Source: a virus
Strand: one strand, 5' to 3'
DNA: 64,000 nt
Virus record (IMG/VR): IMGVR_UViG_3300009514_000016
Span: 1 to 64,000 of that record
Shown piece after piece: positions 10,162-26,459 of this stretch. The translations under genes were made by a program, and so were the position numbers. Positions within the stretch are counted from its first letter, which is position 1; each line of letters begins with the position of its first letter. Under the pieces are notes generated by a model, which did no database searches, was not told the origin of the DNA, and was given only the letters and a program-made list of their open reading frames with translations.

Positions 10162-10189
10162 TTGATGTTTTTGTGATGCGGTGTATAAT
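10162..10189 (+). promoter_or_regulatory. Sigma70-like promoter of the leader-tRNA operon
   Basis: TTGATG-16 nt-TATAAT, about 50 nt upstream of the leader ATG. Confidence 0.7.
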
Positions 10190-10239
10190 AACCCCGAGCC
10201 AAAAGCGGCAAGAAATATAAAACTTTAGAAAGAACAAAA

Positions 10240-10305
10240 ATGAAAACTATTACAATCGTGAAAAAGATGGTCATGATTAAAGGTGGAGTCCCGAGACTGC
10301 GCTAA
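10240..10305 (+). CDS. Attenuator leader peptide MKTITIVKKMVMIKGGVPRLR
   Basis: 21-codon ORF between the promoter and terminator; Lys/Ile/Val/Met codons match the downstream tRNA anticodons. Confidence 0.8.
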   Translation: MKTITIVKKMVMIKGGVPRLR

Positions 10306-10341
10306 TAGTTCTCATTTGCTTGAACTAGAGCCGGTCCTGGG
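10290..10341 (+). promoter_or_regulatory. Antiterminator hairpin (alternative to the terminator)
   Basis: CCCGAGACTGCGCTAATAGTTC (10290-10311) pairs with GAACTAGAGCCGGTCCTGGG (10322-10341), sequestering the terminator 5' arm. Confidence 0.7.
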
Positions 10342-10367
10342 AAACCAAGATCGGCTCTTTTCTTTTT
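10327..10367 (+). terminator. Intrinsic terminator directly upstream of the tRNA array (attenuator)
   Basis: AGAGCCGGTCCTGG-GAAA-CCAAGATCGGCTCT followed by TTTCTTTTT; the first tRNA starts 3 nt later. Confidence 0.85.
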
Positions 10368-10369
10368 AT

Positions 10370-10449
10370 GGGCGTATATCCGCTCTGCTTTACACGCAGT
10401 CGAAACGGTAATTGGTTACATAGGGGTTCGATCCCCTTTACGCCTACCA
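10370..10449 (+). tRNA. Non-canonical tRNA-Val(TAC)-like gene
   Basis: Acceptor GGGCGTA/TACGCCT-A-CCA, T-arm AGGGG-TTCGATC-CCCTT, anticodon arm CTGC-TTTACAC-GCAG. No D-arm at the normal position. Confidence 0.65.
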
Positions 10450-10455
10450 AATAAT

Positions 10456-10531
10456 GATCGGGTAGTTCAGTTGGAAGAACGCAATGCTGACATCATTGAG
10501 GCCGCAGGTTCAAGTCCTGCCTCGATCACCA
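10456..10531 (+). tRNA. tRNA-Val(GAC)
   Basis: Cloverleaf; anticodon arm CAATG-CTGACAT-CATTG; encoded CCA. Confidence 0.92.
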
Positions 10532-10614
10532 ATAATCTGAGACGAACGCGAATTGGTTATCTACGATTAATAGGAAAACCCCAATTTGCAATAAACTTGT
10601 TCAGATTAATTATT

Positions 10615-10692
10615 GGCTGCGTAACTCAATTTGGTCAGAGTAGCACTTTCATACGGTGCAAGTTGTAGGTTCGAATCCTACCGCAGCTACCA
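10615..10692 (+). tRNA. tRNA-CAT (elongator Met favoured; Ile2 not excluded)
   Basis: GCACT-TTCATAC-GGTGC anticodon arm; lacks initiator features; encoded CCA. Confidence 0.88.
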
Positions 10693-10733
10693 AAGGTCAG
10701 ATTTTCTAGAAATAGAAAATTACCAAATATTTT

Positions 10734-10810
10734 GGGTCTGTGGTGTAACGGTTAACACACTATTCTGATAAAATAGAGACAGCTTGGTTCAATTCCAGCC
10801 AGACCTACCA
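10734..10810 (+). tRNA. tRNA-Ile(GAT)
   Basis: CTATT-CTGATAA-AATAG; encoded CCA. Confidence 0.9.
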
Positions 10811-10819
10811 GTAAAATAT

Positions 10820-10897
10820 AGGACGATAGCTAAATTGGCACAGCATTCGGCTCTTAACCGAAAGATTATCTGGGTTCAAATCCCAGTCGTCCTACCA
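10820..10897 (+). tRNA. tRNA-Lys(CTT)
   Basis: TTCGG-CTCTTAA-CCGAA; encoded CCA. Confidence 0.92.
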
Positions 10898-10905
10898 AAC
10901 AATTT

Positions 10906-10993
10906 GGGTCCATTGCCTAGCGGACGAAGGCACCGGGCTTTTAACCCGGAGTGCGTAAGCCCATCGAAGGTTCGAATCCTTCTGGACCCACCA
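10906..10993 (+). tRNA. tRNA-Lys(TTT) with long variable arm
   Basis: CCGGG-CTTTTAA-CCCGG; 16-nt variable region; encoded CCA. Confidence 0.88.
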
Positions 10994-11030
10994 ATAAAAA
11001 GAGACCACAGTAATGTGGTCTCTTTTTATT
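10993..11030. terminator. Bidirectional intrinsic terminator closing the tRNA operon
   Basis: AATAAAAAGAGACCAC-AGTAAT-GTGGTCTCTTTTTATT between convergent units. Confidence 0.85.
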
Positions 11031-11058
11031 TAAGCATTAAAGAAATAATTTAACTATG

Positions 11059-25595: not shown

Positions 25596-26459
25596 TTAGG
25601 AACCAGATGTCACGCTGACTTTTGCCAGAGCATAGTCATTGATGATTACTATGCCCACTTCTTCATAAATTATCCAGCCAAGGCGAAGCTCTTTAGGGTT
25701 ATCTGCTGGTAGAACGGTGATGTCCTGGCGAACCGGGAAGGCACCGACGTATTCGGCTGGAGCGAGCAGGAATACTTCGTCGGTTCTCATACGAGAAGAG
25801 ACGTGAATATCTGCTGTCCAGAGGTGTCCGAATAAACCAGAGGTTAGAACCTCTCTCTGGGTTGCTTCATCGTAAACGGTTTTTCCGAAGTTACGAACGT
25901 CAGCATAGCGTGAAGCATGCATAACGATCTTAGCAACGGTTAGGTCGTGTTGCTCGATGAAAGCGAAAGCGCTGTTTAGGGCGGCTAGGGTTAGAGCGCC
26001 ACCAGTTGTGGTGACAGTGTGATCAGCAAGAATGGAGCTTCTGATTGCGGCGAAGATGTTTGTATCTTCTTCCTTTTGAATAGCTTCTTTTGCTTTGATC
26101 TGAGCGCGGTCTACAATGTAGAATCTACGAGCTTTGATCTCGGAAATTCTGATTTGTGGGTTGACAGCGATCTCGAAAGTTGGGACAAGGATTTCCTCGC
26201 CCTCGGTGATTTCGTCTGGCACAGCGCCTCTACGGGAGATGACGTGAGCGACTGAACGAACGTCTTTTTCGTAGCGAGCTAGGGCTCCTTGTGGTAGTTC
26301 GTCAACCATGAGAAGTTTACGACCTACAGCCTGATACTCAAGTGCTCTACGAATTGGTTCAACCATTGCCTGGGCAAGGGCTACACGTCCTTCGTCTGTT
26401 TCAAGAGCTTGAGCGATAAGAGCTTCGCGTTCTGCTACTGCTGATTTATCTAAAGCCAT
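25596..26459 (-). CDS. Major capsid protein (HK97 fold, encapsulin-like)
   Basis: LAQAMVEPIRRALEYQAVGRKLLMVDELPQGA...PTFEIAVNP...AIQKEED; strongly biased codons; last gene after protease and decoration genes, followed by a terminator. Confidence 0.88.
   Translation of the reverse strand: MALDKSAVAEREALIAQALETDEGRVALAQAMVEPIRRALEYQAVGRKLLMVDELPQGALARYEKDVRSVAHVISRRGAVPDEITEGEEILVPTFEIAVNPQIRISEIKARRFYIVDRAQIKAKEAIQKEEDTNIFAAIRSSILADHTVTTTGGALTLAALNSAFAFIEQHDLTVAKIVMHASRYADVRNFGKTVYDEATQREVLTSGLFGHLWTADIHVSSRMRTDEVFLLAPAEYVGAFPVRQDITVLPADNPKELRLGWIIYEEVGIVIINDYALAKVSVTSGS

What the first reader, a model, noticed from the sequence alone, without database searches (positions are those of the whole stretch)
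10370..10449. tRNA-Val(TAC)-like RNA with the D-arm apparently moved 3' of the anticodon arm
Seen: normal acceptor stem, T-arm and CCA, but only TATCCGCT lies between the acceptor 5' strand and the anticodon stem. After the anticodon arm comes TCGAAACG-GTAA-TTGG-TTAC-AT. CCG (5') can pair with CGG (3') to extend the anticodon helix, and GTAA-TTGG-TTAC forms a GG-containing hairpin where the variable arm should be. The leader has a GTG codon that only this array member could read, which argues for function rather than decay. Inference: a rewired L-shaped tRNA, possibly evading host nucleases and likely scored poorly by tRNA finders.
Basis: partly seen in the sequence, partly recalled or inferred. 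Interest (0 to 1): 0.75.

Follow-up and report, generated by a model that had tools for sequence, protein, structure and literature searches.

The report
Rewired non-cloverleaf phage valine tRNA
This 77-base gene (plus CCA) at the head of a huge phage's tRNA cluster is very probably a working valine tRNA whose D-arm is built from strands on either side of the anticodon arm; it belongs to a large phage-only family that tRNA finders miss and that I found in no paper.

Summary
Window 10370-10449 has a 7-bp acceptor stem, a canonical anticodon loop (UAC), a canonical T-arm, A73 and CCA, but no D hairpin. ARAGORN is silent and Rfam tRNA scores 26.4 bits, below the cut-off of 29.

It is not a wreck. 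A covariance model seeded from it recovers about 100 distinct 77-nt relatives: more than 117 viral contigs, Streptomyces phages such as Jay2Jay, a crAss-like phage and Felix O1. Only 21 stretches matched in 185,579 bacterial and archaeal genomes.

The CCG/CGG helix (11-13:37-39) is 99.6% paired with many compensatory changes. The stretch after that helix reads like a D-loop. Moving it back in front of the anticodon arm makes ARAGORN of 90 members, against 0 of 90 in native order.

Members sit inside tRNA arrays and carry anticodons not duplicated by canonical tRNAs. They follow the local habit for encoded CCA. Arginine members carry an A20-like base. A second Val(UAC) member exists in another phage.

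The nuclease-evasion idea is untested. This scan met the same family earlier on other DNA; this copy adds the valine identity.

The parts
10370..10376 (+). acceptor stem, 5' strand (positions 1-7; G1.U72 wobble)
   Evidence: Family acceptor stem is 97.8% paired and all 7 pairs covary.
10377..10379 (+). U8 A9 U10 connector. U8 and A9 are as in canonical tRNA. U10 faces U40 (proposed 22:13-like non-Watson-Crick layer).
   Evidence: U8 and A9 are invariant and U10 is present in 69 of 72 members; none of these was forced by the search pattern.
10380..10382 (+). CCG, 5' strand of the 3-bp helix (positions 11-13). It corresponds structurally to the 3' strand of a D-stem.
   Evidence: Pairs with 10406-10408. 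99.6% paired, four pair types at each pair.
10383..10384 (+). C14 U15: junction (position-26-like C, then U facing U31)
   Evidence: C14 in 72 of 72 and U15 in 71 of 72 members, not forced by the pattern.
10385..10399 (+). anticodon arm: stem CUGC/GCAG, 7-nt loop UUUACAC, anticodon UAC at 10391-10393, U33, A37
   Evidence: Stem 98.7% paired and all 4 pairs covary.
10400..10405 (+). U31 + CGAAA linker that returns the chain from the anticodon stem to the helix
   Evidence: GAAA was forced by the pattern used. It is also present in the BLAST- and CM-found Jay2Jay and G031 members. Divergent members carry other linkers.
10406..10408 (+). CGG, 3' strand of the 3-bp helix (positions 37-39). It corresponds structurally to the 5' strand of a D-stem.
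10409..10421 (+). UAAUUGGUUACAU: D-loop-like segment (A14, R15, G18 G19, N20, A21 equivalents) followed by CAU (46-48-like)
   Evidence: C50, A51 and U52 are near-invariant though not forced. Position after GG is A in 18 of 18 Arg members and U in 53 of 54 others. Re-ordering test.
10422..10438 (+). T-arm: AGGGG / UUCGAUC / CCCUU
   Evidence: Stem 99.2% paired.
10439..10446 (+). acceptor stem 3' strand and discriminator A73
   Evidence: Discriminator is A in all Ile, Met and Val members.
10447..10449 (+). encoded CCA end
   Evidence: All 5 canonical neighbours also encode CCA; family members follow the local habit, 10 of 11 against 1 of 39.
10456..10993 (+). five canonical tRNAs of the same array: Val(GAC), Met(CAU), Ile(GAU), Lys(CUU), Lys(UUU)
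10327..10367 (+). strong hairpin plus U-tract (terminator-like) that ends 2 nt before the gene

Best explanation
Window 10370-10449 encodes a functional elongator tRNA-Val(UAC) for GUA/GUG codons. It belongs to a widespread, phage-borne family of 77-nt tRNAs with a non-cloverleaf backbone.

All the parts of a class I tRNA are present, but two internal segments are swapped. The '5' strand of the D-stem plus D-loop' (positions 37-49) lies after the '3' strand of the D-stem, position 26 and anticodon arm' (positions 10-31) instead of before it. An NGAAA linker returns the chain.

The 3-bp helix 11-13:37-39 (plus the U10.U40 layer) then plays the D-stem, stacked on the anticodon stem. A41 A42 .. 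G45 G46 .. A49 play A14, R15, G18 G19 and A21. C50 A51 U52 play 46-48.

On this reading the L-shape, the elbow (GG with the T-loop) and the surfaces read by RNase P, the CCA-end machinery, ValRS (A35, C36, A73), EF-Tu and the ribosome are kept.

Shown here: the conserved family, the helices, the part-for-part equivalence, the array context, and the non-redundant anticodons. Inferred: the tertiary fold, charging with valine, and use in translation.
For: 1. Family. A model from this gene plus one relative (R1) scores 84 further viral loci at 60-92 bits, nearly all exactly 77 nt. Canonical tRNAs score 30 bits or less. In 35 whole records the scores split cleanly into 54-95 bits and 30 bits or less.
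2. Covariation. All four helices are 98-99.6% paired. Helix 11-13:37-39 has CG, AU, GC and UA at each pair. Covariation score is 0.896 against 0.208 in shuffles and 0.16 or less when slid.
3. Re-ordering test. ARAGORN of 90 members in native order. After 37-49 is placed between positions 9 and 10 and A34-36 dropped, it of 90, each with the same anticodon. Controls: moved piece reversed 7, shuffled 40, boundaries shifted 25, piece deleted 0.
4. Identity logic. Anticodons are UAU, GAU, CAU, UCU, CCU, ACG, UCG, GCG and UAC only. The base after GG is A in 18 of 18 Arg members and U in 53 of 54 others (Fisher 5e-16). On the tree it switches together with Arg identity in every independent pair that differs in it: 5 pairs on starred branches, about 10 identity changes on the best tree. 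A20 in the D-loop is the established ArgRS determinant.
5. Genomic role. In four complete genomes of about 100 kb the member sits inside the tRNA array, a few nt from its neighbours, with an anticodon that no canonical tRNA of that genome has. In two similarly ordered arrays the Ile(GAU) and Ile(UAU) slots are filled by canonical and rewired genes the other way round.
6. Encoded CCA follows the local array: 10 of 11 against 1 of 39, p 1e-8. Here 5 of 5 neighbours and the candidate all encode CCA.
7. A second Val(UAC) member (L285:10713-10637, minus strand) in another phage is 74% identical, with different stems that still pair. It also has U32, and it also sits beside a canonical Val(GAC).
8. 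This copy keeps every family invariant and scores 85 bits with the family model R2, which was built from an alignment that includes this copy.
Against: - No RNA, charging or structural data exist for any member. No sequencing run could be listed for this locus.
- The tertiary equivalences rest on sequence logic. Most of the positions involved are invariant, some because my search pattern fixed them, so they cannot covary.
- ARAGORN tolerates poor D-arms: 40 of 90 were called with a shuffled insert, so the re-ordering test is supportive rather than decisive.
- The anticodon stem has only 4 Watson-Crick pairs plus U.U.
- Valine identity is rare in the family (2 of about 100 members) and is one base away from the common Ile(UAU).
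- The complete genome of this phage is not available (80 kb, CheckV estimate 17%), so a canonical Val(UAC) elsewhere cannot be excluded.
- Counts over related phages are not independent.
Confidence: 0.75

Rival explanations
1. It is a working tRNA, but simply D-armless, like mitochondrial tRNA-Ser(AGY). The 11-13:37-39 helix only lengthens the anticodon arm. The 13-nt stretch after it is a flexible connector. The molecule is a floppy boomerang rather than a canonical L with a rebuilt core.
For: The secondary structure is formally the same: an extended, bulged anticodon helix between two connectors. No tertiary pair could be tested by covariation. RNAfold alone sees no structure in 40-52.
Against: - The connector is the most conserved part of the molecule and reads as a D-loop consensus.
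- The T-loop is fully canonical, unlike in D-armless mt-tRNAs.
- The base after GG tracks arginine identity like A20.
- Re-ordering gives 89 of 90 calls, deletion of the segment 0 of 90.
- Divergent members change the linker but keep UAA..GG.
Confidence: 0.12
2. It is a tRNA mimic that is not used for decoding, for example a decoy or sponge for a host tRNA-targeting nuclease or toxin, or a primer or regulatory RNA.
For: The shape is unusual and the family is restricted to phages. Anti-phage tRNases are common, and one (RorSlfn5) cleaves tRNA-Val(UAC) among others (PMC13056530).
Against: - Anticodon loops are canonical (U33, A37).
- Anticodons are sense anticodons that fill otherwise empty slots in phage tRNA sets.
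- Discriminator and A20-like base follow synthetase identity rules.
- The CCA habit matches neighbouring tRNAs.
- A decoy would be expected to copy the host target rather than change its core.
Confidence: 0.06
3. This copy is an Ile(UAU)-type family member with a U36C change. It is still charged by IleRS, or by nothing, and so is not a true valine tRNA.
For: Its nearest relatives on the tree are Ile(UAU/GAU) members. UAU to UAC is one substitution. Val members are 2 of about 100.
Against: A second Val(UAC) member with different stems exists in an unrelated contig. It shares U32 and also pairs with a canonical Val(GAC), so the identity is maintained. From established identity rules, A35, C36 and A73 are the main ValRS determinants and U36 is needed by IleRS.
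Confidence: 0.08
4. It is a decayed tRNA pseudogene with a scrambled D region.
For: It falls below the Rfam cut-off and is missed by ARAGORN.
Against: About 100 distinct relatives of identical length have compensatory changes in every helix, and this copy keeps all invariants.
Confidence: 0.02

Closest known systems
Canonical class I elongator tRNA (Rfam RF00005), e.g. bacterial tRNA-Val(UAC) and the Val(GAC) gene next door at 10456-10531
   Same: 7-bp acceptor stem, A73, CCA, 7-nt anticodon loop with U33 and A37, 5-bp T-stem with a GTTCGA T-loop, U8, and a D-loop-like A-A-Y-U-G-G-N-N-A string. Same length class and same place in a tRNA array.
   Different: There is no contiguous D hairpin. 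The two strands of the D-stem flank the anticodon arm, and the D-loop follows the anticodon arm. An NGAAA linker is added. The anticodon stem has 4 pairs plus U.U. Scores 26.4 bits against 60-66 for its neighbours.
D-arm-lacking mitochondrial tRNAs, e.g. mammalian mt-tRNA-Ser(AGY) and nematode mt-tRNA-Ser (review PMC7609411)
   Same: No D hairpin between the acceptor and anticodon stems, and the anticodon helix is extended by extra pairs.
   Different: Those tRNAs have lost the D-loop and have degenerate T-loops and flexible shapes. Some need adapted factors. Here the D-loop motif and a perfect T-loop are kept, the length is normal, and the setting is phages of bacteria.
Circularly permuted tRNA genes of Cyanidioschyzon merolae, and split tRNAs of Nanoarchaeum (my own knowledge; mentioned in PMC3400036 and PMC4090602)
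   Same: tRNA parts are encoded in a non-standard order.
   Different: There the gene is permuted at the ends and processing restores a normal cloverleaf. Here the acceptor ends are in the normal place and an internal segment is transposed, so the mature RNA itself would be non-cloverleaf.
allo-tRNAs and other non-canonical bacterial tRNAs (8/4 and 9/3 acceptor/T; PMC7609411)
   Same: Natural tRNAs found mostly in metagenomes that depart from the standard cloverleaf. Ile and Arg anticodons are frequent.
   Different: allo-tRNAs keep the D-arm in place and alter the acceptor/T stem lengths and the variable arm. The order of their parts is standard.
Phage tRNAs that escape anticodon nucleases through anticodon-loop changes (PMC10264068; PARIS, PMC11464382; retron PtuAB, PMC11555353)
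   Same: Phage-encoded tRNAs whose departures from host tRNAs may be counter-defence.
   Different: Those are ordinary cloverleaves with point changes. No resistance has been shown for the rewired family, and its anticodon loops are ordinary.

Membership tests
tRNA (canonical cloverleaf, Rfam RF00005) | 7-bp acceptor stem, discriminator, (encoded) CCA | tested here: met
   Acceptor pairs covary in the family.
tRNA (canonical cloverleaf, Rfam RF00005) | T-arm: 5-bp stem and 7-nt loop with the T-Psi-C-R-A consensus | tested here: met
   AGGGG-TTCGATC-CCCTT. G56 G57 U58 U59 C60 A62 are invariant (partly forced by the pattern).
tRNA (canonical cloverleaf, Rfam RF00005) | Anticodon arm: 5-bp stem and 7-nt loop with U33 and a purine at 37 | tested here: inconclusive
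   The loop is canonical (UUUACAC). The stem has 4 Watson-Crick pairs, and the fifth layer is a conserved U.U.
tRNA (canonical cloverleaf, Rfam RF00005) | Contiguous D-arm hairpin between positions 9 and 26 | tested here: not met
   Only 8 nt lie between the acceptor and anticodon stems. D-stem-like pairing is between 11-13 and 37-39, across the anticodon arm.
tRNA (canonical cloverleaf, Rfam RF00005) | Score at or above the Rfam gathering threshold (29 bits); called by ARAGORN | tested here: not met
   26.4 bits. ARAGORN is silent. Relatives score 27-34 bits and 75 of 77 are missed by ARAGORN.
tRNA (canonical cloverleaf, Rfam RF00005) | Aminoacylation and use on the ribosome | not testable with these tools
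   No RNA run could be listed. Support is indirect only: identity elements, array slot, CCA habit.
   Every element is present. Models seeded from this gene find the others at 60-92 bits. It scores 85 bits with R2, but R2's training alignment includes it, so that score is partly circular.
   It is the first gene of a 6-gene array, 6 nt before Val(GAC). Same setting in G065-G068 and L285.
D-armless mitochondrial-type tRNA | D-arm replaced by a short connector, D-loop/T-loop contacts lost, degenerate T-loop | tested here: not met
   A short 5' connector is present, but a D-loop-like GG segment and a canonical T-loop are conserved.
Permuted tRNA gene (Cyanidioschyzon type) | 3' half encoded upstream of the 5' half; the mature ends are created by processing of a circular intermediate | tested here: not met
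   The acceptor 5' and 3' strands are at the two ends of the gene, and CCA is at the 3' end.

The most novel reading that the evidence does not exclude
The strand-swapped core is an adaptive counter-defence design. It keeps the L-shape and every surface needed by RNase P, class Ia synthetases, EF-Tu and the ribosome. It removes or alters the contiguous D-arm/anticodon-stem geometry that host tRNA-targeting nucleases or toxins recognise. Phages would then carry these genes as cleavage-proof spares for Ile, Met, Val and Arg decoding.
Probability: 0.2. Interest if true: 0.9.

Novelty: new variant of a known kind. Interest (0 to 1): 0.8.

Why it matters
Textbooks treat the cloverleaf order of tRNA parts as universal outside reduced mitochondrial tRNAs. 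Here a natural family keeps all the parts but wires them in another order.

It occurs in phages that can be grown in the laboratory: Streptomyces phages, a crAss-like Bacteroides phage, Vibrio phages and Felix O1.

If the RNAs are charged and decode, three things follow:
- They show how much of tRNA function depends on three-dimensional shape rather than backbone path.
- They offer a new scaffold for tRNA engineering.
- Phage tRNA complements are being under-counted by standard annotation. 75 of 77 members are missed by ARAGORN, and the GenBank records mostly show nothing at these sites.

This copy extends the family to valine.

Tried and rejected
1. **Exact-pattern scan for near copies of this gene** in viral contigs: 0 hits.

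2. **Neighbouring proteins as handles for related loci.** The 221-aa and 218-aa neighbours gave no relatives. The major capsid protein worked instead.

3. **BLAST of the 900-bp array against cultured phages.** It found only the Lys tRNAs.

Rejected: 75% pairing equals the shuffled value, with no compensatory change.

5. **Watson-Crick pairing of 10:40, 14:32 and 15:31.** Rejected: 4% paired. These are conserved non-standard juxtapositions.

6. **RNAfold's alternative pairs 12-13:32-33 and 35-37:46-48**. Not kept: position 13 covaries with 37.

7. **Leader-peptide attenuation of the array.** The ORF's first 13 sense codons are 11 of 13 Lys, Ile, Val or Met (binomial 7e-6), and together they use every anticodon of the array. 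But with a ribosome footprint placed at each codon (the footprints were set 1 nt off frame, which is immaterial), the terminator hairpin stays in the minimum-energy fold in all 20 cases, and no antiterminator appears. The idea is left open, not adopted.

8. **Sequencing runs for the locus.** None was listed, and no RNA holder was listed.

9. **CyVA-1 RNA** (Rfam RF02965, also 77 positions, in one related tRNA array). It is a different fold, not this family.

10. **Literature.** Five full-text searches and one review found no description of this layout.

11. **Not used:** protein folding and complex tools, because the feature is an RNA.

Full report
**1. Observation**

- The acceptor stem is 7 bp with a G1.U72 wobble, followed by A73 and an encoded CCA.
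- The T-arm is canonical (AGGGG / TTCGATC / CCCTT).
- The anticodon hairpin is CTGC / TTTACAC / GCAG, with U33, anticodon TAC and A37.
- Only eight bases (TATCCGCT) lie between the acceptor strand and the anticodon stem. Twenty-two bases lie between the anticodon stem and the T-stem.

ARAGORN reports the five following tRNAs but not this one. Lowered thresholds, intron mode and mitochondrial mode do not change that. Rfam's tRNA model gives 26.4 bits, below its gathering score of 29. The best alternative, tRNA-Sec, gives 18.5 bits. A single-sequence fold is unremarkable, with z = -1.7.

**2. Setting**

The window is part of an 80-kb IMG/VR virus record that CheckV rates 17% complete. It carries a capsid gene, a portal, a terminase and a GroEL. 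The capsid protein has 158 relatives in viral contigs, many of 300-550 kb, so this is a fragment of a huge phage.

The candidate is the first gene of a six-gene array, followed by Val(GAC), Met, Ile(GAU), Lys(CUU) and Lys(UUU). It ends 6 nt before the next tRNA. All five neighbours encode CCA, as it does.

**3. It has relatives**

BLAST of the 80 nt against 40 related huge-phage records gave one real match. It lies in a complete 548-kb genome and has the same length and layout, but anticodon UCU and a wholly different acceptor stem.

A covariance model of the two (R1) found a third member, with anticodon UCG, in a 488-kb genome. Already among these three, G13-C37 becomes C13-G37 and C11-G39 becomes A11-U39.

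R1 scores 84 places in the 80 listed loci at 60-92 bits, nearly all exactly 77 nt. Ordinary tRNAs in the same loci score 30 bits or less.

Members also turn up without the pattern:
- BLAST finds members in 78 cultured Streptomyces phages, such as Jay2Jay. There the site is unannotated, and in phage EGole it is labelled tRNA-Leu although the anticodon is GAU.
- BLAST with an Arg member also finds a crAss-like Bacteroides phage, Vibrio phages and a Microbacterium phage.
- A family model (R2) finds a divergent member in Felix O1 at 25951-26029, unannotated in RefSeq.

The same pattern matches only 21 stretches in one genome each of 185,579 bacterial and archaeal species. Twenty are MAG contigs and one is in Mesorhizobium sp. 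Root552. The family is therefore essentially phage-borne.

Its distribution among close relatives of this phage is patchy. Of the seven related large huge-phage records searched with R2, five (four of them at least 97% complete) have none and two have one.

**4. Secondary structure**

On 77 distinct sequences all four helices are 98-99.6% paired. The covariation score is 0.896, against 0.208 for shuffled partners and 0.16 or less for slid partners.

Each shows four Watson-Crick types, with changes on both sides in 21, 27 and 10 sequences and one unpaired cell in all.

It pairs in 75% of cells, which is exactly the shuffled expectation. It has no compensatory change, and its closing G39 covaries with position 11 instead.

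Positions 10:40 and 15:31 are conserved U.U juxtapositions, not pairs.

**5. What the 3' segment is**

Several positions are invariant or nearly so although my pattern did not fix them: U8, A9, U10, C14, U15, U31, C50, A51 and U52.

The segment after the helix, UAAUUGGUUACAU, reads as a D-loop consensus followed by three bases:
- A41 corresponds to A14.
- A42 corresponds to R15.
- G45 G46 correspond to G18 G19.
- Position 47 corresponds to N20.
- A49 corresponds to A21.
- The trailing three bases end in a U that would correspond to Y48.

Strand polarity fits. Strand 37-39 runs away from the anticodon stem and straight into this D-loop-like string, as the 5' strand of a D-stem does. Strand 11-13 runs into the anticodon stem, as the 3' strand of a D-stem does through position 26.

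So the RNA is best described as a class I tRNA in which segment [10-21] has been moved behind segment [22-43], with NGAAA as a return linker.

I tested this in silico. In native order ARAGORN of 90 members. With 37-49 placed between positions 9 and 10 and A34-36 removed, it of 90, always with the same anticodon. The controls gave 7 (moved piece reversed), 40 (shuffled), 25 (boundaries shifted by 3) and 0 (piece deleted).

Divergent members, including Felix O1, change the linker but keep UAA..GG.

**6. Signs that it is used as a tRNA**

(a) *Anticodons.* In the sample they are UAU, GAU, CAU, UCU, CCU, ACG, UCG, GCG and UAC. These correspond to Ile, Met/Ile2, Arg and Val, all clients of class Ia synthetases, which rely heavily on the anticodon.

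(b) *The base after GG.* It is A in 18 of 18 Arg members and U in 53 of 54 others (Fisher 5e-16). On a poorly resolved tree that leaves these columns out, Arg identity changes at least 5 times, 10 times on the best tree. The base goes with it in every independent pair that differs in it. A20 in the D-loop is the classical ArgRS determinant, so this supports both charging by ArgRS and the D-loop equivalence.

(c) *The discriminator.* It is A in all Ile, Met and Val members and mostly G in Arg members.

(d) *Array position and non-redundancy.* In four complete genomes of about 100 kb the member lies inside the tRNA array. Its anticodon is not duplicated by any canonical tRNA of that genome. Two similarly ordered arrays fill the Ile(GAU) and Ile(UAU) slots with canonical and rewired genes the other way round.

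(e) *Encoded CCA.* It follows the local habit: 10 of 11 members in CCA-encoding arrays have it, and 1 of 39 in arrays without it (p 1e-8). The loci are related, so these p-values overstate independence.

**7. This copy**

It keeps every family invariant and scores 85 bits with R2, though R2's training alignment includes it. Its nearest relatives are Ile(UAU/GAU) members, one substitution away in the anticodon.

A targeted scan found one more Val(UAC) member in another phage contig, L285:10713-10637 on the minus strand. It is 74% identical, and its acceptor, helix and anticodon stems differ but still pair. It shares U32, which is unusual for the family, and it lies in an array with a canonical Val(GAC) and no canonical Val(UAC) in the 14 kb seen. 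Valine identity is therefore maintained and is not a one-off mutation.

GUA plus GUG make up 23% of valine codons in 21 large ORFs of the window. By wobble rules Val(GAC) cannot read them.

**8. What is not shown**

- No expression or charging data could be obtained.
- The tertiary model is inference.
- The nuclease-evasion idea has no direct support. The only context is that anti-phage tRNases exist and that one, RorSlfn5, cleaves tRNA-Val(UAC), Lys(UUU) and Ile(CAU) among others (PMC13056530). Phage tRNAs are also known to escape such enzymes by point changes (PMC10264068).
- The family lacks Lys and Tyr, which are the best-known targets. Its restriction to one synthetase subclass fits a single origin followed by anticodon shifts at least as well as it fits selection for resistance.

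**9. The 'leader' argument**

A promoter-like site (10162-10189, 10 of 12 matches) precedes a 21-codon ORF (10240-10305, MKTITIVKKMVMIKGGVPRLR). A strong hairpin with a U-tract (10327-10367) follows and ends 2 nt before the gene.

Eleven of the ORF's first 13 sense codons are Lys, Ile, Val or Met (binomial 7e-6). Between them they use all six anticodons of the array, including GUG for Val(UAC).

This is striking. However, with a ribosome footprint at any codon the terminator stays in the minimum-energy fold, and I found no antiterminator. I record it as an open lead, not as evidence for the tRNA.

**10. Novelty**

Five literature searches and a review of non-canonical tRNAs gave no description of this layout.

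Notes of this scan show that other agents met the same family on other DNA (Felix O1 Arg, an Ile(UAU) gene, a giant-phage Arg gene) and also found no paper. I read those notes after my own model was formed. I confirmed the Felix O1 site myself.

Against published knowledge this is a new variant of a known kind: a tRNA with a new backbone topology. This locus adds the valine identity.

Noticed in passing
window 10162-10369: A promoter-like site, a 21-codon ORF (10240-10305, MKTITIVKKMVMIK...) and a strong terminator-like hairpin lie directly before the tRNA array. Eleven of the ORF's first 13 sense codons are Lys, Ile, Val or Met, and they use every anticodon of the six downstream tRNAs (p about 7e-6). 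This looks like a leader-peptide attenuator that would sense exactly the tRNAs it controls. Ribosome-footprint folds gave no antiterminator.
   Followed up: partly
window 10906-10993: tRNA-Lys(UUU) with a 14-nt insertion in the variable region (Rfam alignment, 62.6 bits) and an all-GC anticodon stem. A class II-like variable region is unusual for Lys.
   Followed up: no
window 10994-11033: Strong intrinsic-terminator-like hairpin (GAGACCACA-GUAA-UGUGGUCUC plus U-tract) right after the last tRNA. The array is thus bracketed by two terminators.
   Followed up: no
L215:1960-2571 (Streptomyces phage Jay2Jay KM652554.1 74702-75313); L216 (EGole): In Samistivirus phages the rewired Ile(GAU) gene lies 13 nt downstream of a 'nucleotidyltransferase' gene and is unannotated. 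EGole labels it tRNA-Leu (codon UUA), which does not fit its GAU anticodon.
   Followed up: partly
L113:2864-2942, L128:872-950, L162:3297-3371, L285:2534-2608, L246:1190-1266, L254:4553-4629, L287:1501-1579 (Felix O1): Divergent relatives (37-62 bits) have the same layout but other linkers in place of NGAAA and D-loop-like segments shorter or longer by 1-2 nt. The family is broader than the 77-nt core group.
   Followed up: partly
window 10370/10445; L095:1577/1502; L096:1578/1502: The three huge-phage members all have a G1.U72 wobble at the end of the acceptor stem. Across the family, pair 1:72 is GU in 8 and UG in 3 of 77.
   Followed up: no
L228:1896-1974: A CyVA-1 RNA (Rfam RF02965, 52 bits, above its cut-off) sits inside a phage tRNA array, six bases after a tRNA. 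Its fold is unrelated to the rewired tRNA.
   Followed up: partly
L223:467-695: Group I intron (Rfam RF00028, 96 bits) within a phage tRNA cluster that also holds two rewired tRNAs.
   Followed up: no
L285:6510-6874: A phage-encoded tmRNA with a 31-residue tag lies in the middle of a 25-tRNA cluster that also holds the second Val(UAC) rewired tRNA.
   Followed up: no
L250:2737-2811 (Mesorhizobium sp. Root552, NZ_LMFV01000010.1): This is the only isolate bacterial genome with a pattern hit: a 75-nt Arg(UCU) member lacking two linker bases. It is presumably in a prophage, but the context was not examined.
   Followed up: no
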